The notes under the pieces: generated by a model | Seen by the model: the letters and a program-made list of their open reading frames with translations, nothing else | Databases searched by the model: none | Told to the model about the DNA's origin: nothing | NCBI GenBank assembly: GCA_029288835.1 | Contig: JARIGN010000004.1 | Location: 22,313-86,312, forward strand | Length of the DNA: 64,000 bases | Source: Candidatus Kaiserbacteria bacterium | GTDB lineage: Bacteria > Patescibacteriota > Minisyncoccia > Phycocordibacterales > Phycocordibacteraceae | Direction of reading: 5' to 3' | Position numbers and translations under genes: made by a program | Shown here: positions 2,753 to 53,057 of the stretch, in pieces | Position numbering within the stretch: position 1 is the first letter of the stretch | How the letters are laid out: every line of letters begins with the position of its first letter

Positions 2753-2779
2753 CGTGACAGCTCAGCTTATACTTTAGAT

Positions 2780-32859: not shown

Positions 32860-34320
32860 ATGCCACGAACATTTGATGATATCATCCCACCGTCTCGCAG
32901 ACGCCGCATGGAAGAGGAGTCACAGCAAGGACAGCAGCAGATACCCGTTGAGCCCGAGCCGTATCAGCCAGCTCCTGGTCCTGTAGAAGCACCAGCAGAC
33001 GAATACGGAGAGCCAATGCCTGAGCAAGAAGCAGCAGAACCCACGAATACCACGCCACTGCCGCCAGCCTCGCATCACCACCACACTTCAAATCCATTTC
33101 CTAACACTTCCTACGCCCCAAGCTCCCGACCTAGCCAAGATTACCAGCAAGCTATGCCTCCTGCTCATCCACCACGCATCAAAATTAAGGTTGGCCGAAG
33201 TTTTCCATATGGTACGGCTTTGATTGTTCTCGTCATTATTGCCGTATGTGCCGGCGTACTCTACGCAAATGCGGGTGCTGAGGTAAAAGTGGTTCCTACC
33301 ACCCAAACCGGCTCCGTTAGCGGAGACTTTACCGCAACGCAGGGGAGCGGAAGCCTTCCATTCACCGTAGTGACATTTACTAAGACTGACAGCATGACCG
33401 TTCCTGCCGAGAGCACGACCAACGCAAGCACGAGCGCGCAGGGCACCATTGTTATCTCAAACGCCCAAACAAAGCCTCAGCAGCTCATCACCAACACGCG
33501 CTTCCAAACTGATAGCGGCCTCGTGTACCGCATCCATAGTGCTGTCACCATTCCGGCAGCTACCGCAAGCGGCCCCGGGAAAGTAACGGCTACCGTCTAT
33601 GCAGACCAGCCAGGACAAAGCTTTAACATTGGCCCTAGTAGCTTCACGCTTCCTGGCCTTAAAGGTGACCCTGCCTACACACTCGTCACTGCACAGTCTA
33701 CGGGCCCAATAGCAGGAGGATATTCGGGAGTTCGTCCATCAGTCAGTATGTCTACTGATCTTTCAACCCAGGCAAGCCTTCAGACAAAGCTCGCAAGCGA
33801 GCTCCAGGCAGGCGTTGGTACCAAGCTACCGCAGGGCTATGTCATCATTCCGGGCGGCAGTACCACAAATTACGAAGCGCTTCCTGATACGGCTTCAAGC
33901 ACTTCGGTAGTTGTGAGCGAGCAGGGTACCGTAAATGCTATTGCATTCCCATCCTCTGCGCTTGCTCAGGCAATTGCCTATAAGATTGCAGGTACCTATT
34001 CTGGCCAGCCGGTACAGCTTTTAAGTCCTTCTACCCTCAGCCTTACCCCAGACGCTACCAGCACCAATCTTTCATCAGCGACAAGCTACTCTTTCTCGCT
34101 TTCGGGCAATGCCACGATCATTTGGCAGGTTGACCAGTCTAAGATCGCAGGTGCCGTAGCAGGAAAGACCCGTGACTCAGCACAAAGCATTTTGGCCGGT
34201 TTTCCTGAGGTTCAGAGCGCTGTCTTGACGCTTCGCCCATTCTGGGACAGTACATTCCCTCAGGATCCAAGCCATATTCACGTGATCGTGCAGCAGCCAA
34301 GCGCTACAGGAGCGAAGTAA
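32860..34320 (+). CDS. Hypothetical bitopic membrane protein: Pro-rich cytoplasmic N-terminus, one TM, Thr/Ser-rich extracytoplasmic domain (486 aa)
   Basis: TM helix ALIVLVIIAVCAGVLYA. Low-complexity composition. Directly follows the FtsA/PilM-like gene. Confidence 0.55.
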   Translation: MPRTFDDIIPPSRRRRMEEESQQGQQQIPVEPEPYQPAPGPVEAPADEYGEPMPEQEAAEPTNTTPLPPASHHHHTSNPFPNTSYAPSSRPSQDYQQAMPPAHPPRIKIKVGRSFPYGTALIVLVIIAVCAGVLYANAGAEVKVVPTTQTGSVSGDFTATQGSGSLPFTVVTFTKTDSMTVPAESTTNASTSAQGTIVISNAQTKPQQLITNTRFQTDSGLVYRIHSAVTIPAATASGPGKVTATVYADQPGQSFNIGPSSFTLPGLKGDPAYTLVTAQSTGPIAGGYSGVRPSVSMSTDLSTQASLQTKLASELQAGVGTKLPQGYVIIPGGSTTNYEALPDTASSTSVVVSEQGTVNAIAFPSSALAQAIAYKIAGTYSGQPVQLLSPSTLSLTPDATSTNLSSATSYSFSLSGNATIIWQVDQSKIAGAVAGKTRDSAQSILAGFPEVQSAVLTLRPFWDSTFPQDPSHIHVIVQQPSATGAK

Positions 34321-38701: not shown

Positions 38702-39856
38702 GTGGCGAATGAAAAGACTAACTCGTGCAATCTGGCTCAAATCTTTCCTCAAGGAGACGCTCTACTTGAGAATTGGCCAGAAAAGGATGTGACGAAGGAT
38801 ATGGTAGTGAGGGGAGTACTAAATATCATTCTTAGAAATGGCATTTCCCACTCCACAACCATAGAAAATAATATGCTGGCGGTTCCCGTTACGTTATTTT
38901 CACTCCCTGAAATAGCCAAGGATGTATTCGATTTTTACTTTAAAAAGACACCACCCTCCGGCCTGAAGGAAAATCCTCGTCTTCCCAAGAGAGAGTTTAT
39001 CTTTCCGGGCATTCTTACTGATCTTAAGAGTGGCGGTCAGTTTGAGTGGTGTGAGTTCGCCATTGAGTCCCTCATGCGATTACTACCCGGAGCGCTTGAG
39101 GACCTGAAGAACGGTATCCAGCCTTATGACTATGAAGCGTGGGTGTTGGGGTATCCCACAAATGAGTATGGCAAAGTAACTAATGACTACGCATGCACTT
39201 CACCTTATGCGCAGGTACAGTATCTGTCTGAGCTGTACCTGAGCCTTGTACAGAAAGAAATGGATGACATACCAAAGCGGGGTGCAGTACTTCGTCTCAC
39301 AGGAGTGTCCTTAGGAGCGAGCTTAGCGGCAATCGTTTCTTCTGGTTTTAACTCCAAGAGAAATAAAGTACAAGTAATACTGTATTCACCCGTTGCAATG
39401 GTTGGCATACGTCGCACTGGGCCATTAGCGTTCCCGCTCACTATTTGCGGATTGATTGCGGAGCACGCATATCACGGACTCACAAATTCAGGCACAAGAA
39501 AGCTCCGAGGAGAAATGCGCCATTTCCTCAAAAGGCTTTCCGTCATTTTATCCCATCGCATGAAAGTGCGAGATACGGGTGAAGATGCGAAATACAAGCA
39601 CAAGGCTCTCAAAAGCCTGCACAAGGCTGCTACCGCAGGCATTTGGCCTCGTGTGGGAGTTCGTGCGCGGATAGTATTGGGAAAGCATGATTTGCTAGCG
39701 CGAAGCATGTTGCGCAAGGTTAAGCGCTTTGTTCTTGACGTACCTGGGTATCAAGGAAGAACGATAGAGATGGGGCACCAACCGCCATTCTATCGTGCGA
39801 GAATGTGGCAGCACTTCGCTCGCGTGGTGAGGGTACTTGATCGTCCAGCGGAATAA
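38702..39856 (+). CDS. Alpha/beta-hydrolase-like protein (GxSxG, lipase/esterase-like), GTG start
   Basis: GVSLG nucleophile-elbow motif in LRLTGVSLGASLAAIV. 384-aa ORF. Confidence 0.45.
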   Translation: MANEKTNSCNLAQIFPQGDALLENWPEKDVTKDMVVRGVLNIILRNGISHSTTIENNMLAVPVTLFSLPEIAKDVFDFYFKKTPPSGLKENPRLPKREFIFPGILTDLKSGGQFEWCEFAIESLMRLLPGALEDLKNGIQPYDYEAWVLGYPTNEYGKVTNDYACTSPYAQVQYLSELYLSLVQKEMDDIPKRGAVLRLTGVSLGASLAAIVSSGFNSKRNKVQVILYSPVAMVGIRRTGPLAFPLTICGLIAEHAYHGLTNSGTRKLRGEMRHFLKRLSVILSHRMKVRDTGEDAKYKHKALKSLHKAATAGIWPRVGVRARIVLGKHDLLARSMLRKVKRFVLDVPGYQGRTIEMGHQPPFYRARMWQHFARVVRVLDRPAE

Positions 39857-39910: not shown

Positions 39911-40825
39911 ATGGCTCTTAAACGATATAGTTTCCACATGTATCAGGTACTACTTTTCTATAAATACGTGGATGTTGCTGAGCCGGAAGCGTTGGCGCAA
40001 GCACTCCGTGCAAAAGCCCAGGAACTCTCGCTTCTTGGTCGTGTTTTGGTAGCGACAGAAGGCATTAATGGCACGCTTGAAGGAAAGACCGAGGACACGG
40101 AGCAGTTTGCGAAGTGGTTTCTGTCGAAAGAATGTGCCAATGGCATTTTTTCAGATGTAAGTGTAAAGCGCAGCGAAGGAACGGGAGACGCTTTTCCGAA
40201 GCTTTCGGTAAAAGTGCGTGAGGAAATCGTCGGCACGAAGTTTTCAAAGGAGGATGCGTGCCCGCAGGTCCGCACCGCTCCGCGTATTTCTGCCGAAGAG
40301 CTTCGTAACTGGTTTGAAAATAACGAAGACTTCACCATCATCGACATGCGTAATGACTATGAATACGCTTCTGGGCATTTCAAAGGTTCTATTGATCCAG
40401 GCCTGCAGGCCTCTCGCGACCTTCCGGAAAAGCTTCCTGAGCTCGAAGCAAAGGGTTTGAAGAAAAAGAAAGTGCTCACCGTATGCACGGGTGGCATTCG
40501 CTGCGAGAAGATGTCAGCATATCTCATGAATAATGGCTTTGAAGACGTGTACCAGCTCGAGGACGGCATCCATGGTTATATGCAAAAGTATCCTGGAAAG
40601 GATTTTGTTGGAGCACTGTATACCTTTGATAAGCGAAAGACAATGGATTTTGGAGGTGAAAGGGAAGTGGTTGGCACCTGTTATTTGTGCGAGGCAAAGA
40701 CTGAAGAATACGTAAACTGCGCTAATGACCTCTGTCACCGGCATTTCCTCGTTTGCGCAGAATGCCAAACAGGACCAAAGACCTATTGCTCCGAGCTTTG
40801 CCAATATACGAAGGCATCGGTATAG
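39911..40825 (+). CDS. trhO: tRNA uridine(34) hydroxylase TrhO (YceA, rhodanese-domain; alternative start 39938)
   Basis: LLFYKYV...GRVLVATEGINGT and CTGGIRCEKMSAYLMNNGFEDVYQLEDGI are collinear with E. coli YceA. C-terminal Cys cluster. Confidence 0.8.
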   Translation: MALKRYSFHMYQVLLFYKYVDVAEPEALAQALRAKAQELSLLGRVLVATEGINGTLEGKTEDTEQFAKWFLSKECANGIFSDVSVKRSEGTGDAFPKLSVKVREEIVGTKFSKEDACPQVRTAPRISAEELRNWFENNEDFTIIDMRNDYEYASGHFKGSIDPGLQASRDLPEKLPELEAKGLKKKKVLTVCTGGIRCEKMSAYLMNNGFEDVYQLEDGIHGYMQKYPGKDFVGALYTFDKRKTMDFGGEREVVGTCYLCEAKTEEYVNCANDLCHRHFLVCAECQTGPKTYCSELCQYTKASV

Positions 40826-40847
40826 TATTTCCACTAACTACTCACCT

Positions 40848-41411
40848 ATGGACGATGAAATGCAAGACATGGATGTATCAATAGAAGCCGACGGTTCTGA
40901 AGAACTTGGCGGAAGCGAGGACGAGCTTGAAGCTGAAGAATCACGCGCGGAATCAAAGCTCGCGAAACTACGTAAAGAGCTTGAGCAAGCACGCAAAGAA
41001 AAGCAGGAAAACCTTGATGGATGGCAGCGCGCAAAGGCAGACTACGTAAACGCCCTCAAGCGCTTTGAGGAAGAAAAAAAAGCTGCGTTAGAAATGGGCG
41101 CACTTAAGGCGGCAAAAGCGTTTCTTCCGGCAATTGATTCATTTGAGCGAGCAAAACAAAGCAGCGAACTCCCTGAAGGTTTTGCAGGCATCGTGAAGCA
41201 GCTTGAGGATGCGGTGGGGAAGCTTGGACTTGAGCAGTTTGGTAAAGTAGGAGACCAGTTTGACCCAATGCTTCATGAGGCACTGGGGCAGGATCCTGTC
41301 ATTTCAGCAAAAGAGGACGATAAAGTCACTGCGGTTTTAGAGACTGGATGGAAGACAGGAGAGCAGGTTGTTCGGCCCGCGAAGGTGCGCGTCTCGCACT
41401 TTGAAGGATAG
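40848..41411 (+). CDS. grpE: Nucleotide exchange factor GrpE
   Basis: Coiled-coil N-terminus. Operon position upstream of dnaK. Confidence 0.8.
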   Translation: MDDEMQDMDVSIEADGSEELGGSEDELEAEESRAESKLAKLRKELEQARKEKQENLDGWQRAKADYVNALKRFEEEKKAALEMGALKAAKAFLPAIDSFERAKQSSELPEGFAGIVKQLEDAVGKLGLEQFGKVGDQFDPMLHEALGQDPVISAKEDDKVTAVLETGWKTGEQVVRPAKVRVSHFEG

Positions 41412-41533
41412 AGATCGCTGATTTGAACTTATAAATCAGCAGGTGTAAAATGGGAGTATGAGCGTGCAATAGCACGCAGGCATAGCAGCACGGCATATTG
41501 CTGCATTTATTAATTTCATAAGCATATTTCACT

Positions 41534-43492
41534 ATGGCAAAGATTCTTGGTATTGACCTGGGAACGACGAACTCCGCAATGGCCATAATGGAAGGCGGAG
41601 AGCCGCGCGTTCTTGAAAACTCTGAGGGTGCACGCACCACCCCGTCTATTGTCGCGATCGCAAAGAATGGCGAGCGGCTCGTAGGTACGCTTGCAAAGCG
41701 TCAGGCAGTGACAAATCCAAAAAATACTATTTACGGTATTAAGCGCTTTATGGGCCATCGTTTTGATGATGCGGCAATTCAAGCAGACCGTGGCGTTGTC
41801 CCCTATGAACTAAAAGCAGGCCCAGACGGTGGCGTACAGGTACACCTCGGCGAGAAGGACTATCGTCCTGAGGAAATCTCTGCAATGATCCTCAGCAAGC
41901 TTAAGGCAGATGCTGAAGCAAAGCTTGGCGAGAAGATCACTGAGGCGGTCATTACCGTGCCCGCATACTTTGACGACGCGCAGCGAAACGCCACAAAAGC
42001 AGCAGGGCAGGTAGCGGGGCTCGACGTGAAGCGCATCATTAACGAGCCAACTGCGGCAGCGCTTGCCTATGGCTTCAACAAAAAGAAAGACGAGAAGATC
42101 GCGGTCTATGACTTCGGCGGCGGTACGTTCGACGTGTCCATTCTCGAAGTCGGTGATGACGTGGTTGAAGTGAAGTCAACCGACGGTGACTCCCACATGG
42201 GTGGCCGCGACATTGACCAGAAGATCGTGCGCTATATTGCCGATGAATTTAAGAAGCAGAGCGGTCTCGATATCACCAAAGACCCGCTTGCGCTCCAGCG
42301 CCTCGATGAAGCTGCGGAAAAAGCAAAGCACGAGCTTTCAAACTCTGCCCAGACCGAGATCAATATTCCGTTTATCACGGTTGGCTCAGACGGCACCCCG
42401 CAGCACCTTCTCCTTAACCTCTCCCGCGCTACCCTTGAAAGCCTTGCTGATGAATACATCACCCGCTCTATAGATATCACCAAGCGAGCAATTGAGGCTG
42501 CTGGCCTTAAGCCTTCAGACATTAACGAAATCGTGATGGTAGGTGGCCAAACTCGCATGCCAAAGATCCAAGAGGAAGTGAAGAAGCTTTTCGGCAAGGA
42601 ACCAAACCTTTCCGTGAATCCTGACGAAGTGGTGGCTGTGGGTGCTGCTATCCAGGCAGGTATTCTGCAGGGTGACGTGAAGGACATTCTCCTTGTGGAC
42701 GTGATTCCGCTTTCTCTTTCAATCGAAACCGCAGGGGGCGTCGCAACCAAGCTCATCGAGCGAAACACCGCAATCCCGACCTCTCGCTCCCAAACCTTCT
42801 CTACGTATGCCGACAACCAGACCAGCGTTGAGATCCATGTGATCCAGGGAGAACGCGCCATGGCTTCTGACAACAAGAGCCTTGGAAAGTTCCAGCTCGA
42901 GGGCATTCCTCCGGCTCCACGCGGCATGCCACAGATCGAGGTGACTTTTGATCTCGACACGAACGGTATCCTCACGGTAAAGGCAAAAGAAAAGACTACC
43001 GGCAAGGAGCAGTCGATCCGCATCGAAGGCTCAACGGGTCTTTCAAGCGCCGATATCGAAAAAATGAAGCAGGATGCAGAAATGCACGCAGCAGAAGATG
43101 AGAAGCGCAAGGAGCTTGCCGAAGCAAAGAATCTTGCTGAGCAGATGGTATACACCGCAGAAAAGGCAGTAAAGGAAAATGGGGACAAGGTAGATGCAGC
43201 GGTTGTGACGGATGTAAATGAAAAGATTGCAGCACTTAAGACTGCACGAGAAGGCGAGAGCGTTGACGCCATTAAGAGCGCAAGCGAAGCACTTTCTTCA
43301 GCACTCTCAAAGATTGGAGAAGCAATGATGCAGCAGCAAAATACTGCAGGGGCAGAAGGTGCCACTGGGGCAACAGAGGGATCAGAAGCAGCAAATGACT
43401 CTGGAGCAGGAAGTGCTTCGAGCGGAGCAGAAGGGCAGGGCGATTCCTCAGCAGCCACCGACGCTGACTTCACGGAAAATCCAGGGAGCTAA
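41534..43492 (+). CDS. dnaK: Molecular chaperone DnaK (Hsp70)
   Basis: [17 protein letters not shown] and [11 protein letters not shown] motifs. Confidence 0.97.
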
Positions 43493-43576
43493 GGGTAGTC
43501 TCTTCGCAACTTCAGGCATACAGCTCGCTACAACACGGGCTTGACATTACGTCCATGAAGGTGTAATACTAAACCT

Positions 43577-44077
43577 ATGACTATCAATACCGTATCCCGT
43601 CTCGGAAGCGTTCTCGCCGCATTGGTGCTTGTGTTTGCAGGGATTTCCCATGCAACGCCAGCCTTTGCGTACTATGGCGCTCTTGAGGGTACCCAGCCAC
43701 TCAGTGCCGTTTGTAACGGTCGCTATGACCCAACCTGCCTTATGAAGGAAACGGCATACGCTCAGCAGCTCAATGCTCCGTATACGAGTTGGCATAATTA
43801 CCAGTATCAAGCTCCAGCACTTCCTCATACCTACGGCGTGCCGTATGTGGCTCCTACCTACGTAGCTCCGACGTACTACAACTACACGAGCTACCCATAC
43901 AGCTATAGTTACAACTACCAGTATCAGTACGTAATGCCAGCAACTTCATACTATGCTGCACCCACCTACTACACGCCTACCGCATACAGCTATGACGACT
44001 ACAATAGCTACGACTCTTATGATAGCTATGACAATTACGAAAGCTGTGGTTCCTATTCCTACAATTGCGGCTACTAA
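43577..44077 (+). CDS. Secreted Tyr-rich low-complexity protein (166 aa, ~25% Tyr) inserted between dnaK and dnaJ
   Basis: Signal peptide (cleavage near AFA-YY). Repeats PTYVAPTYY, YSYSYNYQYQY and SYDSYDSYDNY. Confidence 0.55.
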   Translation: MTINTVSRLGSVLAALVLVFAGISHATPAFAYYGALEGTQPLSAVCNGRYDPTCLMKETAYAQQLNAPYTSWHNYQYQAPALPHTYGVPYVAPTYVAPTYYNYTSYPYSYSYNYQYQYVMPATSYYAAPTYYTPTAYSYDDYNSYDSYDSYDNYESCGSYSYNCGY

Positions 44078-44110
44078 TTCAGTAGTGCACTCGTAAAAGT
44101 GAACGAAAAG

Positions 44111-44140
44111 TCTCGGTTGCTACCGAGACTTTTTCGTTTT
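44111..44140 (+). terminator. Hairpin (tctcgg...ccgaga) + T-run between the Tyr-rich gene and dnaJ
   Basis: Seen directly in the sequence. Confidence 0.45.
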
Positions 44141-44155
44141 ATACTGGGTTTACGT

Positions 44156-45259
44156 ATGGCAAACTCCAAGAATTACTACGAAATACTCGGTATCGACAAG
44201 AAGGCAGACAAGGATGAGGTGAAGAAAGCATTCCGAAAACTCGCCCAGAAGTACCACCCTGACAAAGGCGGCAGCGAGGACAAATTTAAGGAAATAACTG
44301 AGGCATATAGCGTGCTTTCTGATGACAAGAAGCGCCGCGAATACGACTCGTACGGCCAGACCTTTCCGGGTGGCGCCGCACCAGGCGCCGGAGGATTTGG
44401 GGGGAATATGGGAGGATTTGATTTCTCGAATTTTCAAGGGTTTCAGCAAGGAATGGGTGGTATTGAGTTTGATATTTCTGACCTCTTTTCTGGGATGGCT
44501 GGTGACATATTTGGCGGGGGAGGAGGACGAGTAAAGCGTGGGCGCGATATTTCAATGGACGTTGAGATCTCCTTCAAGGAGTCTATTCTCGGGGTGCAGC
44601 GTTCTGTCCTTATAACCAAAGTGAGCCAATGTGAAGTTTGCGAGGGCAGCGGAGCAAAGCCAAAGACCGAAATGGAGACCTGCAAGACCTGTAACGGTGC
44701 GGGACGCATCCATGAGACACGCGACTCCATCCTTGGGGCGTTCACGAGCGTACGTACTTGCCCAAATTGTGAAGGCAGCGGCAAGGTACCAAAGGAGAAG
44801 TGTACAAACTGCGGCGGTCGCGGCGTAGTTCGCAAAGAAGAGGAGATTAAGCTCACTATTCCTGCAGGCATGGACAATGGCGAAATGATCCGCATGCCGG
44901 GGCATGGCGAAGCGGTTAAAGGTGGCCGGGCAGGAGACCTGTACATAAAAGTGCATGTAAAGCCACATGCCGTATTTCATAAAGAAGGGGCAAACCTCAT
45001 CATGAATCTGCCAATAAAGCTCACCGACGCACTGCTCGGCACCACCGTTTCTGTTACCACCATCGACGATAAAGTCCTCGACGTGAAAGTGCCTCCCATG
45101 CAGCAAACAGAAGAGACGCTCCGCGTTCGCGGAAAGGGAGTGAAGTTTTCAGAAGGTGGCTCCGGTGACCTGCTCATTCGCGTCACGGCAAGCCTTCCAC
45201 GAAAGCTTTCCAGCAAGGCTAAAAAGGCGATTGAAGACCTAAAGAGCGAGGGTCTTTAA
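44156..45259 (+). CDS. dnaJ: Molecular chaperone DnaJ
   Basis: J-domain YYEILGIDKKADKDEVKKAFRKLAQKYHPD. G/F region. Four CxxCxGxG zinc motifs. Confidence 0.95.
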   Translation: MANSKNYYEILGIDKKADKDEVKKAFRKLAQKYHPDKGGSEDKFKEITEAYSVLSDDKKRREYDSYGQTFPGGAAPGAGGFGGNMGGFDFSNFQGFQQGMGGIEFDISDLFSGMAGDIFGGGGGRVKRGRDISMDVEISFKESILGVQRSVLITKVSQCEVCEGSGAKPKTEMETCKTCNGAGRIHETRDSILGAFTSVRTCPNCEGSGKVPKEKCTNCGGRGVVRKEEEIKLTIPAGMDNGEMIRMPGHGEAVKGGRAGDLYIKVHVKPHAVFHKEGANLIMNLPIKLTDALLGTTVSVTTIDDKVLDVKVPPMQQTEETLRVRGKGVKFSEGGSGDLLIRVTASLPRKLSSKAKKAIEDLKSEGL

Positions 45260-45284: not shown

Positions 45285-45824
45285 GTGCGCTATACTGTAT
45301 CCATGGATCAGCTAGCGCTGCAGGTATCAAACATCGCCACTAATAGCGCGCTCCACGCCTGGGCACTTCTCGATAATTTCCTCATACTCGTCCTGCTGAC
45401 GGTCATTATGATCGGCTTTTCTTATTATGGAGGCCGTGGGGGCATCATTTCCGTGCAGCTCGCGTTCTATGTCGGGTATGGGATTTACATGATTTTCCCC
45501 TTTACGAATTACTTCATCGGCTTCGGGGGAGCACCGCTTGAAAAGGCAGTCATCAGCTCAATCCTCTTTATTATTGCTTCCTTTGTGCCGTTTCTTTTTA
45601 TAAACAAAATGCTCAGCGGGGGATTTGGCATTTTAAGCTTTGTGCCGCGCTTTGTGCTTTCGCTTGCCACCGCCTGCTTCTTGATAGCACTCGCGTACCA
45701 CGTCTTTTACGTGACCCATATCTACACCTTCCCAGAACCAATGAATTCTCTCTTCTCGCCTGACCAGTACTTCTTCTGGTGGTTTATCGCACCGCTCGCT
45801 GCACTTTTCTTCCTTGTGCACTAA
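45285..45824 (+). CDS. Hypothetical polytopic membrane protein (179 aa)
   Basis: Five or six hydrophobic helices. No motif recognised. Confidence 0.5.
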   Translation: MRYTVSMDQLALQVSNIATNSALHAWALLDNFLILVLLTVIMIGFSYYGGRGGIISVQLAFYVGYGIYMIFPFTNYFIGFGGAPLEKAVISSILFIIASFVPFLFINKMLSGGFGILSFVPRFVLSLATACFLIALAYHVFYVTHIYTFPEPMNSLFSPDQYFFWWFIAPLAALFFLVH

Positions 45825-45889
45825 TAGTTTCAAGATACCACCTAACGACCTAGGGTAATAGAACACAACATTTGTGCTATACTAGCAAT

Positions 45890-47785
45890 ATGCGTTCGAT
45901 AGCGGCTACAAAAACCGCGCGCCAGAAAAAAGAAAGGCGTGCGGGTTCCCATACTATTTTTACGGTCTACAGCAAGGAGCTGGGGAAGTTTCCGCTACTT
46001 TTTCTGGGCACCCTCTGTGGCACCATTTTTATTCAGACTGCTGACCTCATTTCGCCGCTTTACCTAAAGCGCTTTTTTAACACGCTCATTCTTTCGCACA
46101 CAAGCCCCACCGTCGTGCACGGACTTTTTATAACGCTCGCCATCATCGCATTTTTTGAAGTAGTGAATTGGGTTGGCTTCCGCGTGCAGGCATTTAGCAT
46201 AATGTACCTCGAGTCGAAAGCCATGAGCGACCTGTACGCAAATTCCTTTGAGTACCTCATGCAGCATTCCTACAACTTCTTCAGCTCGCAGTTTTCAGGA
46301 ACGCTCACGCGCCGCATCAGCAAATTTGCAAACGCATTTGAAACACTTCTCGACAGCATCATGCTGCAGTTCCTTCCGACGACTATTTTTGTGGCTGGAG
46401 CAATAATAATTTTGTTTATTAATAACCATACGCTTGGGTTGCTTCTTGGAGGATGGGCAATACTTTTCGTTGCGTTCCAAGTATATGTGGGAAAGCTACG
46501 CCAACCGCTCCGCGTTGAGCGTGCGGAAGAAGATAGCCGCATGACCGGAAACTTGGCGGATGCTATTTCCAACCAAAGCACTATCTGGCTTTTTTCTGCT
46601 AACGCCTTTGAATTTGCGCGCTTCCGAGAAGCAATCCGCAAGTGGAAAAAGGCCACCATGCGCGCATGGAACGCTGACGAATGGATTTGGGCATCTTTGG
46701 GACTTCTCATGGGCGGCATTTACGTGGGCATGCTCTATGCCGCAGTCTACTACTGGCAGCGCGGCCAGCTCACCATAGGAGATTTCGTGCTTATCCAAGC
46801 CTATCTTCTCACCACTTTCCAGCAGCTCGTGGGCATTAACCGAAACCTGCGTCGCTTCTATGACGGTCTCGCTGACGCAGCAGAAATGGTTCAGATATTT
46901 AATTTGCCGCATGAGATTCAGGATGATGCTGACGCAAAAGCGCTTGAAGTGACGAAAGCAGAGATTGAATTCAAGAATGTGGGATTTTATTTCAACCCGG
47001 AGCACACCATTTTCGAGCACTTTAATCTACACATCTCGGGTACTGAAAAAGTCGCGCTTGTCGGCCCTTCCGGAGCAGGAAAGTCTACCATTACCCGCCT
47101 TATCCTTCGCTTCTATGACGCGAAAAGTGGCGAGATTCTTATAGACAACCAAAATATTACGCAGGTAACCCAAGAAAGCCTTCGCGGTGCTATTTCGTTT
47201 GTGCCGCAGGAGCCAATCCTTTTCCATCGCTCGCTTATGGAAAATATTCGCTATGGTCGCCGTGACGCCACCGATGAGGAAGTTATTGAAGCTGCCAAAA
47301 AAGCGCATGCACACGAATTCATTAGTCATTTTCCTGATGGATACGAGACATTTGTGGGGGAGCGTGGCGTAAAGCTTTCTGGGGGTGAGCGCCAGCGCGT
47401 GGCTATTGCACGTGCCATCCTTAAGAATTCTCCTATTCTCGTACTAGACGAAGCCACCTCAAGCCTTGACTCTGAGTCGGAAGCACTCATCCAGGAAGCG
47501 CTCGATGTGCTTATGGAAGGGAAGACGGTCATCACCATTGCACACCGCCTTTCAACCATTATGAAAATGGACAGGATTGTGGTGGTAGACGGCGGAAAAA
47601 TTGTTGCAGAGGGAACCCACGATAAGCTTTTGGAAGATGAACAGGGCCTCTACCACAAGCTATGGAGCATCCAGGCAGGCGGCTTTTTACAAGATGAAAT
47701 AGAAGAGGGCGAAGAGATCCTTACGGAAGCTGGAACTTCAAAAACTGTGGATGAGGACCTTGAAACTCAGCTATATATCGTATAA
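45890..47785 (+). CDS. ABC transporter, fused permease/ATPase (MsbA/type-I exporter-like)
   Basis: Six-TM domain. GPSGAGKST Walker A, LSGGERQRVAIARA signature, ILVLDEATS Walker B. Confidence 0.9.
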   Translation: MRSIAATKTARQKKERRAGSHTIFTVYSKELGKFPLLFLGTLCGTIFIQTADLISPLYLKRFFNTLILSHTSPTVVHGLFITLAIIAFFEVVNWVGFRVQAFSIMYLESKAMSDLYANSFEYLMQHSYNFFSSQFSGTLTRRISKFANAFETLLDSIMLQFLPTTIFVAGAIIILFINNHTLGLLLGGWAILFVAFQVYVGKLRQPLRVERAEEDSRMTGNLADAISNQSTIWLFSANAFEFARFREAIRKWKKATMRAWNADEWIWASLGLLMGGIYVGMLYAAVYYWQRGQLTIGDFVLIQAYLLTTFQQLVGINRNLRRFYDGLADAAEMVQIFNLPHEIQDDADAKALEVTKAEIEFKNVGFYFNPEHTIFEHFNLHISGTEKVALVGPSGAGKSTITRLILRFYDAKSGEILIDNQNITQVTQESLRGAISFVPQEPILFHRSLMENIRYGRRDATDEEVIEAAKKAHAHEFISHFPDGYETFVGERGVKLSGGERQRVAIARAILKNSPILVLDEATSSLDSESEALIQEALDVLMEGKTVITIAHRLSTIMKMDRIVVVDGGKIVAEGTHDKLLEDEQGLYHKLWSIQAGGFLQDEIEEGEEILTEAGTSKTVDEDLETQLYIV

Positions 47786-49280: not shown

Positions 49281-50819
49281 ATGCCGAAGGCGAAGCATCC
49301 AGGAATACGGGCTCGAATTCCCGCGAACAAGGCGGTTGTACTCGCACGTTCTGCTTCAGCTAGTTATTGGGAACATGTACGCAAGAAAAATGCACTCGAC
49401 CTTTTTAAGAAAGCTGCCAAAGAAGTACCAGCCTATAAGAAATTTCTTGAAGAGCACGGCATACAAGCTTCAACCGTTAAGACGTGGGAGGATTTTACGA
49501 AGATACCCGCTACCAGCAAGGCGAACTATTTGCGCGTAAACCCACCCGAGTCAATTGTATGGAAGGGAAATCTTGCTCGGCCCTCTGTCTATTCGGCAAC
49601 TTCGGGATCTACTGGTACGCCTTTTTACTTTCAACGCTCTCAAAATTTAGAAGAGGAATATTCTGCACTCATTGAGCTTTTTTTCCTTTCGAACGGAACC
49701 GTGCCAAGTCCTGAATGCCCGACCCTCGTCATTATTGGCTTCGGGATGGGAGTGTGGATCGGCGGTATGTTAACATTCCGTGCCTATGAGATAGCCAGTC
49801 ACCGAGGCTATCCTGTTTCCATTCTTCCTGCGGGAGTAAATAAGAATGAAATATTGCACGCATTCAGAAACCTCGCGCCACACTATAAACAGACCATTCT
49901 TATCGGCTATCCTCCTTTTATTAAAGACATTTTGGACGAAGCTGCCCTGGAAGGCATTGATCTCAAGTCTTTACACTTGCGTCTCCAGTTTGCTGCCGAA
50001 TCATTTACGGAACAGTTTAGGGAATATGTGGGTACGAAAGCTGGAATACAGAATATCGTTCGTGACACGTTCAATGTGTATGGCACCTCCGATATTGGAG
50101 CCATGGCCTTTGAGACCCCGGTCTCCATCCTTGTGCGACGGCTTGCCTTGCAGAACCCCGAGCTCTATACCGCACTCTTTGGTTCATTACACAAGATGCC
50201 TACGGTGGCGCAATACAATCCTGCATACATGACCTTTGAGCAGTCAGAAGAAGGAGAAGTGCTTTTAACGGGGAACAGTGCCGTGCCGCTCATTCGGTAT
50301 GCGGTAGGGGACCATGGAGGAGTTCGTTCTTATGAAGAGGTTAACAGTCTCTGCAATTCCTTTGGCATTGACCTTGAGGAAGAATGCAAAAAGCACGAGG
50401 TTCCACTTTATAAGTTTCCTTTTGTCTATGTGTATGAGCGAGCAGACCTGGCCACCACCCTCTATGGCTTACAGATATTTCCACAGTACATAAAGGATGT
50501 GCTCCTCAGCGACTTTGCCCAGGAGAAACTCACGGGTAAATTCCAGCTTGCCACAAAATATGACGCAGAACAAAACCAGTTTTTAGAAATTAATGTTGAA
50601 TTGAAGAAAGGAGTTGACGCCGCTGATGCCGAATTCATTCAAGAGATTGAACACCATATTTACACAGCACTTTTGGAGAAAAGTTCGGAATTTCGAGAAC
50701 TCTCGACGTTTGTACACAATCGTAAACTTTTTGTCCTCGTATTTCACGAGGCAGGAAACGCAGAATTCTTTCCTCAAGGAATCAAGCAAAAATGGGTGCA
50801 GAAGACAGCCGTTAAATGA
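49281..50819 (+). CDS. Adenylate-forming enzyme, PaaK/coenzyme-F390-synthetase-like
   Basis: YSATSGSTGTPFYF matches the PaaK P-loop-like motif. NVYGTSDIG matches the YGxTE-like A5 motif. C-terminal GDHGG. Confidence 0.7.
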   Translation: MPKAKHPGIRARIPANKAVVLARSASASYWEHVRKKNALDLFKKAAKEVPAYKKFLEEHGIQASTVKTWEDFTKIPATSKANYLRVNPPESIVWKGNLARPSVYSATSGSTGTPFYFQRSQNLEEEYSALIELFFLSNGTVPSPECPTLVIIGFGMGVWIGGMLTFRAYEIASHRGYPVSILPAGVNKNEILHAFRNLAPHYKQTILIGYPPFIKDILDEAALEGIDLKSLHLRLQFAAESFTEQFREYVGTKAGIQNIVRDTFNVYGTSDIGAMAFETPVSILVRRLALQNPELYTALFGSLHKMPTVAQYNPAYMTFEQSEEGEVLLTGNSAVPLIRYAVGDHGGVRSYEEVNSLCNSFGIDLEEECKKHEVPLYKFPFVYVYERADLATTLYGLQIFPQYIKDVLLSDFAQEKLTGKFQLATKYDAEQNQFLEINVELKKGVDAADAEFIQEIEHHIYTALLEKSSEFRELSTFVHNRKLFVLVFHEAGNAEFFPQGIKQKWVQKTAVK

Positions 50820-50831
50820 TAGAATAGGGCT

Positions 50832-51971
50832 ATGAATACTTTCCCAAAACCAGTACTGAAAGAAGCGATTGATACACCTGAAAACCTTTTTTCTTCTTAT
50901 GAAATTAGTCGCTCACTAGACCTGTATGACGAGCTCCTAGAGGAGTTATTCTTGATTCGTAATCCGCAGTATAAATTTAACCCAAACTATACGACAGAAT
51001 TCCAGCAGTGGAAGGCTGCGTTGGAGACTGCGCAACCTGCGCTCGCGCACGGCATGTGGGCGTATTTCCCTTGGTCTAAAATAGCGGTACGGGTACTGCC
51101 TGATGCGGAACACCTTGAGCTTAGGACGGCACGAAATAAAAACCTCATTACCAAAGAGGAACAAGAAAAGTTTTATAACTCTCGCATTGCGGTTGCTGGC
51201 CTTTCCGTAGGAAGCCATGGCGCACTCACGCTCGCACTCATGGGTGGCGCTCGCACCCTTTTCCTTGCCGATCCCGACACTATTTCAGGGTCAAACCTAA
51301 ACCGCATCCGCTATGACTATACAACAATTGGCAGGAAGAAAGCGGAAGTAGCTGCTGAATATATCTACCAACTAAACCCCTATGCTGAGGTGCATCTTTT
51401 TTCAGAGGGAGTAAGTGCAGAAAATATTGATACATTTCTGGGCGGAGATGAAAAGGTGCAGCTTCTGGTGGAAGAGCTTGATAACCTTGAGATGAAGGTT
51501 CGGCTTCGCCTTGCGGCAAAAGAAAAAGGGATTCCAGTAATTATGGCCACCGATAATGGCGACGGTATTATTATGGACATAGAACGCTACGACCTTAACC
51601 CTAACACTGAGCTCTTTAATGGTGCCCTCGGTCACTTGACGATGGAAGAGTTTTCACAGTTTACCCCGAGCGACCTTCCCAAGCTTGCAACAAAGGTGGC
51701 GGGAGTAGAAGTAGTGGTGCCTCGCATGCTCTTGTCCCTTAAAGAAGTAGGAAAGACTTTGTATTCATGGCCACAGCTTGGTGACGCTGCAACTCTTTCA
51801 GGAGTAGCTATTGCGTATATTGCGCGCAAAATCATTCTTGGAGAACCAGTCCGCGATGGCAAGCACGAGATTAACCTTGATGCGATCTTTGATGCACACT
51901 ATGACTCTGCAGAAGCAGTTGCTGAACGGGAACAGGTTCGTTCAGCTTTTAAGCAGGCACTAGGACTATAG
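50832..51971 (+). CDS. E1-like (ThiF/MoeB/MccB family) adenylyltransferase with ~110-aa N-terminal extension
   Basis: RIAVAGLSVGSHGALTLALMGGARTLFLADPDTISGSNLNRIRY matches the E1 Rossmann and SNLNR motif. No CxxC pairs. Confidence 0.7.
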   Translation: MNTFPKPVLKEAIDTPENLFSSYEISRSLDLYDELLEELFLIRNPQYKFNPNYTTEFQQWKAALETAQPALAHGMWAYFPWSKIAVRVLPDAEHLELRTARNKNLITKEEQEKFYNSRIAVAGLSVGSHGALTLALMGGARTLFLADPDTISGSNLNRIRYDYTTIGRKKAEVAAEYIYQLNPYAEVHLFSEGVSAENIDTFLGGDEKVQLLVEELDNLEMKVRLRLAAKEKGIPVIMATDNGDGIIMDIERYDLNPNTELFNGALGHLTMEEFSQFTPSDLPKLATKVAGVEVVVPRMLLSLKEVGKTLYSWPQLGDAATLSGVAIAYIARKIILGEPVRDGKHEINLDAIFDAHYDSAEAVAEREQVRSAFKQALGL

Positions 51972-51977
51972 GCACCT

Positions 51978-53057
51978 ATGCAGGAAAAGATACGAGCAAT
52001 TGTCGAGAAGGCAGTATGGGCGCCTTCGGGAGACAATTCACAACCATGGGAATTTTCGTTCGTGGATGAATCAACGCTCCAGGTGCATCTCATTCCCCAC
52101 AAGGATAATAAAATACTTAATTATAAGTTGAGTGGCACGTATGTTGCTCATGGCGCATTGATTGAAAACATAGTACTTCTGGCGGGGAAAGAAGGCCTTA
52201 CTGCTTCCGTCATGCTTTTACCCGTTTCTGATGATCCATTGATTACCGCGCAGATTACTTTTAAGGAAAGTGCTTCATCCTCTAACCTTCCAGATCCGCT
52301 TGCTGAGGCAATCCCTGCACGACATACCAACAGGAAGCAGTATGAGCCAAAGCAGCTTTCTGAAGAGGCTCGAGCAAGTATCACTAAGGCTGCTGCAGCT
52401 GCTTCAGATGAAATCACTTTTCATGTACTAGAAGACAAGAAACGTATAAAAAAAGCAGCCTATGCAGAATCCCTGATACAAAAGATTGCTCTTGAGACTC
52501 CCACTCTGCATTCAATTTTCTTTTCTAATATCTTATGGAAGGAAAAGGATAATACCGGAGAGAAACAGGGTCTCTCTCTAAAAAGTATGGAACTTCCTCC
52601 ACCAGTAGAAAAACTTTTTCCGTTGCTTTCCCACTGGCCAGTCACGAAAGCATTTAACAAAATTGGGTTTTCTGCTATGGCCTCAAAAACAAATGGCGAC
52701 CTTTTTGCCTCATCACCCGCCATAGGGCTTGTTTGCGTACGGAAAGAGGAGCCTGTGCAGTACCTTGAAGCGGGCAGGGTATTTGAGCGTGTGTGGCTAG
52801 CGGCGACCGCACAAGGCGTTTCCTTTCAACCCATTAGTGGCTTACTTTTTGTAGCACGAAGGCTTGCTGCAGGGGAGACTGACGCATTAGACTCAAAGCA
52901 TTTTGATGAAATTTCACTAGCGGCGAATGACATTGCCCAAGCTTTCTCTTTGACTAATGGAGAGATACCGCTGATGATGTGTAGGATGGGATACAGCGCC
53001 GCAGCTACGAGCCGATCAAAGAGAGCTGCTCCCGTTTTCCGCACTAGCCATGCTTAG
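51978..53057 (+). CDS. Nitroreductase-superfamily protein, apparently two tandem half-domains (SagB/McbC-type dehydrogenase-like)
   Basis: WAPSGDNSQPWEF matches the nitroreductase FMN-site motif. RHTNRKQY Arg motif. 359 aa. Confidence 0.65.
   Translation: MQEKIRAIVEKAVWAPSGDNSQPWEFSFVDESTLQVHLIPHKDNKILNYKLSGTYVAHGALIENIVLLAGKEGLTASVMLLPVSDDPLITAQITFKESASSSNLPDPLAEAIPARHTNRKQYEPKQLSEEARASITKAAAAASDEITFHVLEDKKRIKKAAYAESLIQKIALETPTLHSIFFSNILWKEKDNTGEKQGLSLKSMELPPPVEKLFPLLSHWPVTKAFNKIGFSAMASKTNGDLFASSPAIGLVCVRKEEPVQYLEAGRVFERVWLAATAQGVSFQPISGLLFVARRLAAGETDALDSKHFDEISLAANDIAQAFSLTNGEIPLMMCRMGYSAAATSRSKRAAPVFRTSHA

What the first reader, a model, noticed from the sequence alone, without database searches (positions are those of the whole stretch)
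43577..44077. Secreted tyrosine-rich low-complexity protein encoded between dnaK and dnaJ
A 166-aa ORF with a clear signal peptide interrupts grpE-dnaK-dnaJ. Roughly a quarter of its residues are Tyr, in short repeats (PTYVAPTYY, YSYSYNYQYQY, SYDSYDSYDNY), and it has a terminal CGSYSYNCGY. A terminator hairpin separates it from dnaJ.

Tyr-rich secreted repeats suggest an adhesive or cross-linkable surface or matrix protein. Its placement in the heat-shock operon is odd and could tie its expression to stress.
Basis: seen in the sequence. Interest (0 to 1): 0.5.

Follow-up and report, generated by a model that had tools for sequence, protein, structure and literature searches.

The report
Secreted tyrosine-rich protein between dnaK and dnaJ
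The ORF is a real, conserved gene for a small secreted protein that is about one quarter tyrosine; it belongs to an unnamed family found in one clade of ultra-small Patescibacteria, always between the chaperone genes dnaK and dnaJ, and its function (probably a sticky or self-assembling surface material) is untested.

Summary
Window 43577-44077 (+) encodes 166 aa with a Sec-type signal peptide. It has 34 Tyr (20.5% overall, 25% of the mature part), against 2.9% for other long ORFs in the window. It lies between dnaK and dnaJ and is followed by a strong hairpin terminator.

It is a gene, not a chance ORF. An exhaustive profile search found about 25 related proteins of 101-211 aa, none named and none with a Pfam, NCBIfam or PDB match. 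They share four parts:
- a signal peptide with an invariant A-x-A site;
- a conserved disulfide-type loop, VC-x-[GS]-R-[YF]-D-P-N-C-[ILM]-x-K-E (pN/pS 0.26);
- a fast-evolving Tyr/Asn/Ser/Gln tail with Y-x-Y periodicity;
- usually a C-terminal Tyr.

All 12 members with DNA context sit between dnaK and dnaJ. Carriers form one clade in a DnaJ tree, and sister lineages hold unrelated genes in the same slot.

The gene has its own conserved promoter, TTGACA-17-(TG)TAnnnn, ending 6-8 nt before the ATG, so the mRNA is probably leaderless. No terminator separates it from dnaK, so read-through is possible.

Most likely function (inferred): a secreted, largely disordered, self-associating or adhesive surface protein. 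Coupling to heat shock is not shown.

The parts
43541..43570 (+). Own sigma-70-type promoter: TTGACA (43541-43546), a 17-18 nt spacer ending in TG, and a -10 element (TAATAC/AATACT) ending 6-7 nt before the ATG. This implies a leaderless or nearly leaderless mRNA.
   Evidence: Consensus scan, 10 of 12 matches with TG. The same TTGACA-17-(TG)TAnnnn arrangement, 6-8 nt before an ATG, is seen in L081, L083, L084, L085, L086, L087, L090 and L091. L001 has a weaker version and L088 none clearly.
43577..44077 (+). Coding sequence of the 166-aa Tyr-rich secreted protein (stop codon included).
   Evidence: About 25 homologues found. Reading frame kept across 28 members of 101-211 aa.
43577..43669 (+). 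Signal peptide, residues 1-31, with predicted cleavage AFA|YY.
   Evidence: n/h/c architecture read from the sequence. A29 and A31 are invariant and P28 nearly invariant in the 27-sequence alignment. There is no lipobox Cys and no twin-arginine motif.
43709..43750 (+). Conserved loop module VCNGRYDPTCLMKE (V45-E58). C46 and C54 are invariant and presumably form a disulfide-closed 9-residue ring. A short predicted helix follows.
   Evidence: Invariant columns C46/C54 and nearly invariant D51. C-x7-C in 26 of 28 members and C-x6-C in 2. pS 0.885 against pN 0.226 over 36 pairs. The motif occurs once per locus. AF2 places a helix at 54-65 with low confidence.
43751..44074 (+). Tyr-rich low-complexity tail (residues 59-166), ending in a C-terminal Tyr.
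   Evidence: Family tail composition: Y 28.7, N 15.1, S 12.9, Q 9.1, P 7.3, T 6.1, G 5.1 %. Y-x-Y spacing is seen 290 times against 150.5 +/- 10.3 in shuffles. 22 of 28 members end in Tyr, P = 6.5e-8. AF2 pLDDT is mostly below 50 with no secondary structure.
43988..44045 (+). DNA tandem repeat, 18-nt unit in 3.2 copies, encoding SYDSYD...
   Evidence: Tandem Repeats Finder score 60, 72% matches.
44045..44074 (+). C-terminal second cysteine pair, CGSYSYNCGY (subfamily feature).
   Evidence: The same kind of terminal C-x4-7-C-x(1-4) pair is present in 6 of 28 members: window, P0007, P0009, P0012, P0014 and P0020.
44098..44146 (+). Intrinsic terminator (hairpin 44105-44134 plus T run). It overlaps the promoter-like site of dnaJ (44117-44145).
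   Evidence: Fold energy -22.8 kcal/mol, z = -6.55. Equivalent hairpins follow the homologues in L001, L083, L084, L085, L086, L087, L088, L090 and L091.
41534..43492 (+). dnaK, the upstream neighbour. No terminator lies between it and the Tyr-rich gene.
   Evidence: PF00012, E = 2.7e-246. The spacer 43493-43576 is unstructured, z = -0.43.
44156..45259 (+). dnaJ, the downstream neighbour, with its own promoter-like site TTGCTA-17-TATACT ending 10 nt before the ATG.
   Evidence: DnaJ, DnaJ_CXXCXGXG and DnaJ_C domains. Promoter-like site.

Best explanation
Window 43577-44077 is a functional gene for a small Sec-secreted protein. It belongs to an unnamed family restricted to one clade of Paceibacteria-type Patescibacteria.

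Architecture:
- a cleavable signal peptide;
- a roughly 30-residue conserved head containing a C-x7-C (probably disulfide) loop and a short helix;
- a rapidly evolving, nearly uncharged Tyr/Asn/Ser/Gln/Pro tail with alternating Y-x-Y patterns and a C-terminal Tyr.

The gene entered the dnaK-dnaJ spacer once, in the ancestor of the clade, and has been inherited vertically there. It is a largely self-contained transcription unit: a strong conserved sigma-70-type promoter placed so that transcription starts at or next to the AUG, and its own intrinsic terminator.

Inferred mechanism, not shown: after export and signal-peptide removal, the conserved head folds and docks or orients the protein. The Tyr-rich tail stays disordered or forms beta-rich self-associating assemblies (Tyr ladders, pi-stacking, hydrogen bonds, possibly oxidative dityrosine links). 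This would give the cell a sticky or cohesive coat for attachment to host cells or surfaces, or for envelope reinforcement.

Shown here: the gene is real, the family exists, the secretion-signal features are present, the loop is under purifying selection, the synteny is strict, and the promoter and terminator are conserved. Inferred: secretion itself, the disulfide, self-assembly or adhesion, and the leaderless start.
For: - Family: the exhaustive HMMER search gave 26 hits at E <= 1e-3 and 19 at E <= 1e-10. All but one spurious repeat protein (P0017) are 101-211 aa with the same architecture.
- Constraint: invariant A-x-A, C46 and C54. Loop codons show pS 0.885 against pN 0.226.
- Synteny and history: 12 of 12 members with DNA context lie after dnaK and before dnaJ. 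Carriers are monophyletic in a DnaJ tree.
- Transcription signals: the promoter TTGACA-17-(TG)TAnnnn sits 6-8 nt before an ATG in 10 of 11 loci, although synonymous sites are saturated. Terminators follow the gene.
- Tail: 84% Y/N/S/Q/P/T/G, very few charged or aliphatic residues, and Y-x-Y spacing 13 sd above shuffles. A terminal Tyr is conserved, P = 6.5e-8. AF2 predicts no fold for the tail.
- Outlier status: extreme Tyr content within the window.
- From established knowledge, not tested here: Tyr/Ser/Asn/Gln-rich uncharged sequences are the typical 'sticker' composition of prion-like and adhesive proteins, and alternating polar/aromatic patterns favour beta strands.
Against: - No experimental or expression data exist for any member.
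- No homology to any characterised adhesin, amyloid or matrix protein.
- 7% Pro in the tail disfavours a regular amyloid.
- The AF2 models are uninformative because the alignments are shallow (3 and 11 sequences), so 'disordered' is weakly supported.
- No peroxidase, laccase, sortase or other partner was found next to the gene in any locus.
- The perfect linkage to dnaK and dnaJ is not explained by an adhesion role. It is attributed here to vertical inheritance.
- The signal peptide was judged by rule and conservation, not by a trained predictor.
Confidence: 0.55

Rival explanations
1. Chaperone-coupled client. The gene is kept between dnaK and dnaJ because its extremely aggregation-prone precursor needs DnaK/DnaJ to stay export-competent, or because it is co-induced by stress through read-through from the dnaK promoter. 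The position would then be functional rather than historical.
For: - Strict synteny in 12 of 12 loci, with no loss in the whole clade.
- No terminator between dnaK and the ORF.
- Precedent: E. coli DnaK keeps the amyloid subunits CsgA and CsgB translocation-competent by binding their signal peptides (PMC6123696).
Against: - The gene has its own conserved strong promoter and terminator.
- Each gene of the cluster has its own promoter-like site, and no CIRCE element is present.
- The same slot holds unrelated genes in the sister clade, so it behaves as a permissive insertion site.
- Gene order over the whole region (rpoA-rplQ-rplM-rpsI-trhO-grpE-dnaK-...-dnaJ-TM-ABC) is conserved anyway. Linkage therefore needs no special explanation.
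Confidence: 0.2
2. Secreted bioactive peptide, bacteriocin-like or signalling. The conserved disulfide loop would be the active part, and the Tyr-rich tail a carrier or pro-region removed after export.
For: - Only the head module is conserved in sequence.
- The mature N-terminus [YD]YGA...VC...C loosely recalls the YGNGVxCxxxxC box of class IIa bacteriocins (from memory; a lead only).
- An ABC exporter gene lies two genes downstream.
Against: - The loop is C-x7-C, not C-x4-C.
- The proteins are acidic to neutral and 100-210 aa, not small cationic peptides.
- No immunity gene, C39 peptidase or modification enzyme lies beside the gene in any of the loci whose neighbours could be read.
- The TM-ABC pair also follows dnaJ in non-carriers.
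- Tail composition, Y-x-Y periodicity and the terminal Tyr are themselves conserved, which argues that the tail is functional.
Confidence: 0.08
3. Signal-anchored membrane protein. The N-terminal hydrophobic segment is not cleaved, and the Tyr-rich part is displayed as a tethered brush on the outer face of the membrane.
For: There is a single N-terminal hydrophobic helix and no other anchor (no LPXTG, no lipobox), so how the protein is retained on the cell is otherwise unexplained.
Against: A-x-A is invariant and a Pro lies at -4, exactly where signal peptidase I needs them. The h-region is only about 15 residues.
Confidence: 0.12
4. Chance ORF or annotation artefact in an enlarged dnaK-dnaJ spacer.
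For: Low-complexity sequence, no database annotation, and no close homologue by word-based search with the protein alone.
Against: - About 25 homologues keep the frame despite many indels.
- Purifying selection on the loop.
- Conserved promoter, ATG and terminator.
Confidence: 0.02

Closest known systems
Curli subunit CsgA and other bacterial functional amyloids
   Same: A small Sec-exported protein, rich in Gln/Asn/Ser/Gly/Tyr, poor in charged and aliphatic residues, that self-assembles outside the cell into an adhesive matrix. Its precursor is a known DnaK client (PMC6123696).
   Different: There is no sequence relationship: no Curlin repeat or any other Pfam hit. CsgA has five regular 19-23-residue repeats and depends on csgB and csgEFG, and none of these is present. 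Tyr reaches 25-30% here. The conserved Cys loop has no counterpart. The host is a presumably monoderm Patescibacterium.
Prion-like low-complexity domains (for example FUS LC with [G/S]Y[G/S] repeats, or the Sup35 N domain)
   Same: The composition is almost the same alphabet (Y, S, Q, N, G, P, T), with Tyr as a regularly spaced 'sticker'. No stable fold is predicted. The comparison rests on general knowledge.
   Different: Those domains are intracellular and eukaryotic, have no signal peptide and are parts of larger proteins. No prion-domain predictor (PLAAC) could be run here.
Tyr-rich wall proteins cross-linked through dityrosine (coccidian oocyst-wall GAM56/GAM82 and Toxoplasma Tyr-rich proteins; Bacillus spore-coat CotC/CotU)
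   Same: Small proteins with extreme Tyr content that build protective layers. The apicomplexan ones carry signal peptides (papers listed: PMC7366593, PMC3616887, PMC10128015). YD-type repeats resemble CotC (from memory).
   Different: No homology. Those systems need peroxidases or oxidases, and none is seen near this gene. CotC/CotU are Lys-rich, basic and assembled without a signal peptide.
Thermus thermophilus DafA (small DnaK-DnaJ assembly factor encoded in the dnaK operon)
   Same: A small lineage-specific gene embedded in the Hsp70 gene cluster (from general knowledge).
   Different: DafA is cytosolic, has no signal peptide or Tyr bias, and lies after dnaJ. No similarity.
Class IIa (pediocin-like) bacteriocins
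   Same: A secreted peptide whose mature N-terminus has a Y-G...V-C...C disulfide loop.
   Different: The loop is C-x7-C rather than C-x4-C. This protein is 135 aa and acidic rather than about 40 aa and cationic. There is no immunity or dedicated export gene beside it.

Membership tests
New unnamed family (Paceibacteria dnaK-dnaJ Tyr-rich secreted proteins) | Signal peptide with A-x-A, followed within 10-40 residues by VC-x-x-[RP]-x-D-x-x-C (C-x6-7-C). | tested here: met
   The window protein has AFA|YY and VCNGRYDPTC. 28 of 28 members have C-x6-7-C and an A/S-x-A site.
New unnamed family (Paceibacteria dnaK-dnaJ Tyr-rich secreted proteins) | Tail with more than 20% Tyr, Y-x-Y periodicity and a terminal aromatic residue. 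| tested here: met
   25% Tyr in the mature protein and a C-terminal Tyr. The Y-x-Y excess is clear for the family (z about 13) but marginal for this protein alone (10 against 6.3, P = 0.075).
New unnamed family (Paceibacteria dnaK-dnaJ Tyr-rich secreted proteins) | Location between dnaK and dnaJ. | tested here: met
   Window layout. 12 of 12 relatives with DNA context.
Sec / signal peptidase I secreted proteins | Positively charged n-region, 10-15-residue hydrophobic h-region, and small residues at -3 and -1. | tested here: met
   R8, LGSVLAALVLVFAGI and A-F-A, with the -3 and -1 alanines invariant in the family. This was judged by rule and conservation. SignalP was not available.
Bacterial lipoproteins | Lipobox L-x-x-C with Cys at +1. 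| tested here: not met
   There is no Cys before residue 46.
Sortase-anchored (LPXTG) surface proteins | C-terminal LPXTG motif, then a hydrophobic stretch and a basic tail. | tested here: not met
   The C-terminus is ...ESCGSYSYNCGY, with no hydrophobic tail.
Curli / CsgA (Pfam Curlin_rpt) | Curlin repeat units detectable by the Pfam model. | tested here: not met
   No Pfam family at E <= 0.01 for the window protein, and none at E <= 1 for three relatives.
Prion-like / amyloid-forming low-complexity domain | Q/N/S/G/Y-dominated composition with few charged or aliphatic residues, and demonstrated cross-beta or condensate formation. | tested here: inconclusive
   The composition fits: tail Y+N+S+Q+G is 71%, ILVMF about 6%, and K+R+D+E about 5%. 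PLAAC or an aggregation predictor could not be run, 7% Pro argues against a regular amyloid, and there are no biophysical data.
RiPP or bacteriocin precursor | An adjacent modification, immunity or dedicated export gene, and a leader peptide rather than a Sec signal. | tested here: not met
   The neighbours are dnaK and dnaJ wherever they could be read. The gene has a Sec-type signal.
Heat-shock (HrcA/CIRCE) regulon member co-transcribed with dnaK | A CIRCE operator, or a shared transcript with dnaK under heat induction. | tested here: inconclusive
   No CIRCE within 3 mismatches anywhere in the window, and the gene has its own promoter. However, no terminator lies between dnaK and the ORF. 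Expression data are not available.

The most novel reading that the evidence does not exclude
The family may be an extracellular prion-like or amyloid-type coat or adhesin of ultra-small episymbiotic bacteria, whose gene is kept inside the Hsp70 cluster for a functional reason. DnaK and DnaJ would act as its dedicated export chaperones, holding the extremely aggregation-prone precursor soluble until Sec translocation in organisms that lack other export chaperones. dnaK read-through would raise its production under stress. This would be a hard-wired chaperone-client gene pair and a new class of bacterial functional aggregate.
Probability: 0.12. Interest if true: 0.75.

Novelty: new variant of a known kind. 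Interest (0 to 1): 0.45.

Why it matters
Patescibacteria (CPR) are abundant and mostly uncultured, and they live attached to other microbes. Apart from type IV pili, little is known about what their surfaces are made of or how they stick.

This gene defines a conserved, lineage-specific secreted protein with one of the most extreme tyrosine contents seen in a bacterial protein. Its architecture is simple: a disulfide-loop head and a Tyr/Asn/Ser/Gln tail. It could be synthesised and tested directly for adhesion, self-assembly or dityrosine cross-linking.

Its unbroken linkage to dnaK and dnaJ gives a concrete test of whether Hsp70 systems are dedicated to exporting aggregation-prone surface proteins. 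If the protein turns out to be an ordinary accessory surface protein, the finding still adds a family definition for about 25 'hypothetical proteins'. It also documents the dnaK-dnaJ spacer as an insertion hot spot in this lineage.

Tried and rejected
- The single-sequence word-indexed search found only the protein itself. Exact-sequence contig look-ups of the window protein failed. Homologues appeared only after the syntenic ORF in L001 was spotted by eye and used in a profile.
- tblastn of the protein against 80 dnaK loci at 1e-5 gave nothing, because of low complexity and divergence. A six-frame motif scan for C.G..DP.C worked instead.
With 7 sequences it matched 10 stretches, none confirmed by tblastn. 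A degenerate DNA pattern for the loop found 0 matches. Both metagenome scans are therefore spent with no result.
- The third word-indexed search, with the full alignment, was swamped by low-complexity candidates and returned only 10 members.
- AlphaFold2 was run twice, with 3- and 11-sequence alignments. Mean pLDDT was 38 and 47, so no usable model and no fold search.
- Pfam, NCBIfam and PDB-sequence searches found no family. The weak DUF4179 hit on L001 (E = 0.0018, below cut-off) covers the signal peptide only.
- P0017 (1822 aa) in the HMMER list is a spurious match of a eukaryote-like 'TPAHEDY' repeat to the signal-peptide end.
- Homology between this family and the secreted Cys-containing proteins in the same slot of the sister clade was tested and rejected (hhalign probability 0.3%).
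- The Rfam hit BSnc120 at 44076-44152 (31 bits against a gathering score of 114) only reflects the terminator hairpin.
- Literature searches for tyrosine-rich proteins in Patescibacteria returned nothing. Other searches gave only analogies.
Full report
**1.

Window 43577-44077 (+) is an ORF of 166 codons that begins at the first ATG after an in-frame stop. It encodes MTINTVSRLGSVLAALVLVFAGISHATPAFA|YYGALEGTQPLSAVCNGRYDPTCLMKE... and ends ...SYDSYDSYDNYESCGSYSYNCGY.

It contains 34 Tyr, which is 20.5% of all residues and 25.2% of the 135 residues left after the predicted cleavage. Other ORFs of at least 150 aa in the window average 2.9% Tyr (sd 2.6%), and the next richest ORF of 60 aa or more has 9.7%. 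GC content and GC3 match those of dnaK and dnaJ.

Pfam identifies the neighbours as GrpE, Hsp70/DnaK and DnaJ. It folds at -22.8 kcal/mol, z = -6.55 against shuffles. Only the SYDSYD stretch is a tandem repeat at the DNA level.

**2. It is a gene with relatives**

The organism is a Patescibacterium of the Paceibacteria/Kaiserbacteria type. The best DnaK matches among 185,579 species genomes are Patescibacteria MAGs, at up to 85% identity. The window's own dnaK, dnaJ and Tyr-rich proteins are singletons at 90% identity.

A search with the protein alone found only itself. In the closest genome (L001), however, the dnaK-dnaJ gap holds a 169-aa ORF with 21% Tyr. It has the same signal-peptide end (ATPAFA) and the same motif, VCNGRYDPNC (pairwise E = 3e-8).

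A two-sequence profile then recovered P0004 and P0005. A three-sequence profile searched exhaustively against 1.84 billion representative proteins gave 26 hits at E <= 1e-3, of which 19 were at E <= 1e-10. One hit, P0017, is a spurious repeat protein. The rest are 101-211 aa and share one architecture. Where sources name them at all, they call them 'hypothetical protein', for example from Candidatus Pacebacteria. No Pfam, NCBIfam or PDB sequence matches any member.

**3. Anatomy of the family** (27-28 sequences)

- **Signal peptide.** It has a basic residue, about 15 hydrophobic residues, and an invariant A-x-A preceded by a nearly invariant Pro.
- **Linker.** A short stretch, often [YD]YGA-x-P.
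- **Cys loop.** V-C-x-[GS]-R-[YF]-D-P-N-C-[ILM]-x-K-E-x-N-Y. Both Cys are invariant and the Asp nearly so. The spacing is C-x7-C in 26 of 28 members and C-x6-C in 2.
- **Tail.** Its length varies. Pooled composition is Y 28.7, N 15.1, S 12.9, Q 9.1, P 7.3, T 6.1 and G 5.1 %, with roughly 5% charged and 6% aliphatic or Phe residues.
  - Consecutive Tyr are spaced i+2 far more often than in shuffles: 290 against 150.5 +/- 10.3.
  - In the window protein alone this excess is marginal: 10 against 6.3, P = 0.075.
- **Near the C-terminus.** A Y[QSN]Y[QSN]Y block is present in 23 of 28 members. The last residue is Tyr in 22 of 28 (P = 6.5e-8 given tail composition) and Phe or Trp in two more.

Across nine loci the 14 loop codons have pS = 0.885 (saturated) and pN = 0.226, which indicates purifying selection on the protein. 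Two AlphaFold2 runs gave mean pLDDT of 38 and 47. They show the signal helix, a low-confidence helix at residues 54-65, and nothing in the tail. This is compatible with disorder but is weak evidence, because the alignments are shallow.

**4. Genomic behaviour**

Every member whose DNA could be examined lies directly after dnaK and, where the contig continues, directly before dnaJ. The loci are the window, L001, L081/L082, L083, L084, L085, L086, L087, L088/L089, L090, L091 and L092. L081 has two further small genes in the same gap, a 127-aa secreted protein and an AHSA1/SRPBCC protein.

In a neighbour-joining tree of DnaJ, the carriers form a single clade, with DnaJ 77-89% identical to the window's. 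The sister clade (L003-L010, 66-72% identical) has gaps of 400-830 nt filled with unrelated small genes, often secreted or membrane proteins. L002 sits outside that clade in the tree and has a 2.1-kb gap holding an unrelated 618-aa ORF. More distant Paceibacteria mostly have dnaK and dnaJ 10-200 nt apart.

A profile-profile comparison finds no relationship between the Tyr-rich family and the Cys-containing secreted proteins found in the slot in L004, L006, L010 and L027 (probability 0.3%).

The simplest history is therefore this. The dnaK-dnaJ spacer is a permissive insertion site in this lineage. The Tyr-rich gene arrived or arose there once and has been kept by all sampled descendants. Meanwhile its sequence diverged to 29-51% identity, while its neighbours stayed near 85%.

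**5. Expression signals**

Directly upstream of the ORF lies TTGACA-17/18-(TG)TAATACT (43541-43570), ending 6-7 nt before the ATG. This arrangement, often as GGGCTTGACA with a TG-extended -10 and an ATG 6-8 nt downstream, recurs in 10 of 11 loci even though synonymous sites are saturated. Ten of the 11 start codons are ATG. That geometry predicts a leaderless or nearly leaderless mRNA. This is an inference, because no transcript data are available.

The style is not unique to this gene. Similar sites precede trhO (39938), the ORFs at 32860 and 48214, and, with a weaker -35, dnaJ. grpE, dnaK, the Tyr-rich gene and dnaJ each have a promoter-like site. The dnaK promoter, TTGAAC-17-GTGTAAAAT, is strongly conserved.

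Strong hairpin terminators follow the Tyr-rich gene in most loci. By contrast, the 84-nt dnaK-ORF spacer is unstructured (z = -0.43), so dnaK transcripts could run into the gene and stop at its terminator. No CIRCE operator exists in the window, and Rfam finds nothing meaningful.

**6. What it most likely does**

Shown:
- the gene is real and constrained;
- it carries secretion-signal features;
- it has a conserved two-Cys head and a compositionally conserved Tyr-rich tail;
- it has autonomous transcription signals.

Inferred:
- the protein is exported by Sec and cleaved after A31;
- C46 and C54 form a disulfide that stabilises a small head, which docks or orients the protein;
- the uncharged Tyr/Asn/Ser/Gln tail acts as a multivalent 'sticker' sequence. 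The Y-x-Y alternation would put Tyr on one face of a beta strand.

Such a tail would self-associate or bind surfaces, giving an adhesive or cohesive extracellular layer. Oxidative dityrosine cross-linking is possible, but no oxidase is seen nearby. I put about 0.55 on this overall reading. The structural and genomic statements are far more certain than the functional one.

**7. Rivals**

| Rival | Main support | Main objection | Confidence |
|---|---|---|---|
| Functional coupling to the chaperones (export client or stress co-induction) | Perfect synteny; possible read-through; DnaK holds the CsgA precursor export-competent (PMC6123696) | Own promoter and terminator; promiscuity of the slot | 0.2 |
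| Uncleaved signal anchor | Retention on the cell is otherwise unexplained | Invariant A-x-A site | 0.12 |
| Bioactive loop peptide | Only the head is conserved in sequence | No partner genes; the tail features are themselves conserved | 0.08 |
| Chance ORF | Low complexity, no annotation | Excluded by the comparative data | 0.02 |

**8. Comparison with known systems**

The protein works most like secreted functional amyloid or matrix proteins such as curli CsgA, like prion-like Tyr/Ser/Gln low-complexity domains, and like Tyr-rich wall proteins that become dityrosine cross-linked (coccidian oocyst wall, Bacillus CotC/CotU). It is not a member of any of these families. There is no homology, the architecture differs, and the partner genes are absent.

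It is best filed as a new, unnamed family and a new variant of the known kind 'secreted low-complexity surface or matrix protein'. Two features are unexplained:
- the almost universal C-terminal Tyr;
- the unbroken residence inside the Hsp70 gene cluster.

**9. Verdict**

The adhesive or matrix idea is plausible but untested. The heat-shock tie is not supported by the gene's own promoter and terminator, although read-through from dnaK is not excluded.

Interest is moderate at 0.45. This is a clean, testable new family in a poorly understood phylum, but it has no demonstrated function and does not bear directly on a long-standing open question.

Noticed in passing
L002-L010, L016, L027, L043, L048, L081 (dnaK-dnaJ gaps); window 43493-44155: The dnaK-dnaJ spacer is a variable insertion hot spot in this Paceibacteria lineage. 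Gaps of 400-2100 nt hold unrelated genes. L004, L006, L010 and L027 carry small secreted Cys-containing proteins sharing a C[VIL]GGFV motif. L002 carries a 618-aa ORF, L016 and L027 carry roughly 318-aa Cys-rich proteins, and L081 carries a 127-aa secreted protein plus an AHSA1/SRPBCC protein. More distant relatives mostly have dnaK and dnaJ 10-200 nt apart.
   Followed up: partly
window 41423-41533: dnaK has a strongly conserved promoter, TTGAAC-17-GTGTAAAAT, with an inverted repeat TGATTT...AAATCA straddling the -35 element. Its roughly 80-nt leader has two hairpins (GCGTGCaataGCACGC and GCAGCAcggcatatTGCTGC). The promoter is conserved in 7 relatives, but the leader sequence is not. No CIRCE element occurs anywhere in the window. 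How the heat-shock genes are regulated here is open.
   Followed up: partly
window 32860, 39938, 44156, 48214: Other genes also have a -35/-10 pair ending 6-10 nt before the start codon, with no room for a Shine-Dalgarno sequence. Leaderless mRNAs may therefore be common in this genome.
   Followed up: partly
window 38702-39856: A 384-aa ORF with no Pfam match sits between rpsI and the trhO-like rhodanese gene. In L081/L082 rpsI and trhO are adjacent, so this is another lineage-specific insertion.
   Followed up: no
window 49281-53057: This is a cluster of three genes: a 512-aa protein with no Pfam match, a ThiF/E1-like protein (PF00899) and a nitroreductase-family protein (PF00881, with a TM1586-type N-terminus). 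The pairing recalls the cyclodehydratase/dehydrogenase sets that modify peptides (TOMM-like), but no YcaO protein or precursor was identified. A nitroreductase also follows the ABC transporter in L083.
   Followed up: no
window 170-5419: An 860-aa protein has weak TraG-D_C, HerA/DUF87 and AAA hits, which suggests a coupling-protein-like ATPase. An 879-aa protein with no Pfam match follows it. Together they may be part of a DNA-transfer or secretion apparatus.
   Followed up: no
window 40725-41411: The longest grpE ORF overlaps the end of trhO by about 100 nt. Relatives mostly align from residue 25-50 onward (about 46 in the closest ones), and a promoter-like site lies at 40798-40826. The real start is therefore probably the ATG at 40848 (MDDEMQ...).
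   Followed up: partly
window 45285-45824 and 45872-47785: A 179-aa multi-pass membrane protein with no Pfam match, followed by an ABC exporter, comes after dnaJ in carriers and in many non-carriers alike. Identity of the membrane protein to relatives is 22-85%. This is a conserved dnaJ-TM-ABC module of unknown meaning.
   Followed up: no
family alignment A3; window 44072-44074: 22 of 28 family members end in Tyr and two more end in Phe or Trp (P = 6.5e-8). A terminal aromatic residue is the hallmark of outer-membrane beta-barrel sorting signals in diderms. Its meaning in a presumed monoderm is unexplained.
   Followed up: partly
L083 (ENA ERZ25039529 contig_86279): dnaK, grpE, trhO and the TM gene are each split into two ORFs in this contig. 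These are probably frameshift errors of a long-read assembly rather than pseudogenes. The Tyr-rich gene is intact there.
   Followed up: no
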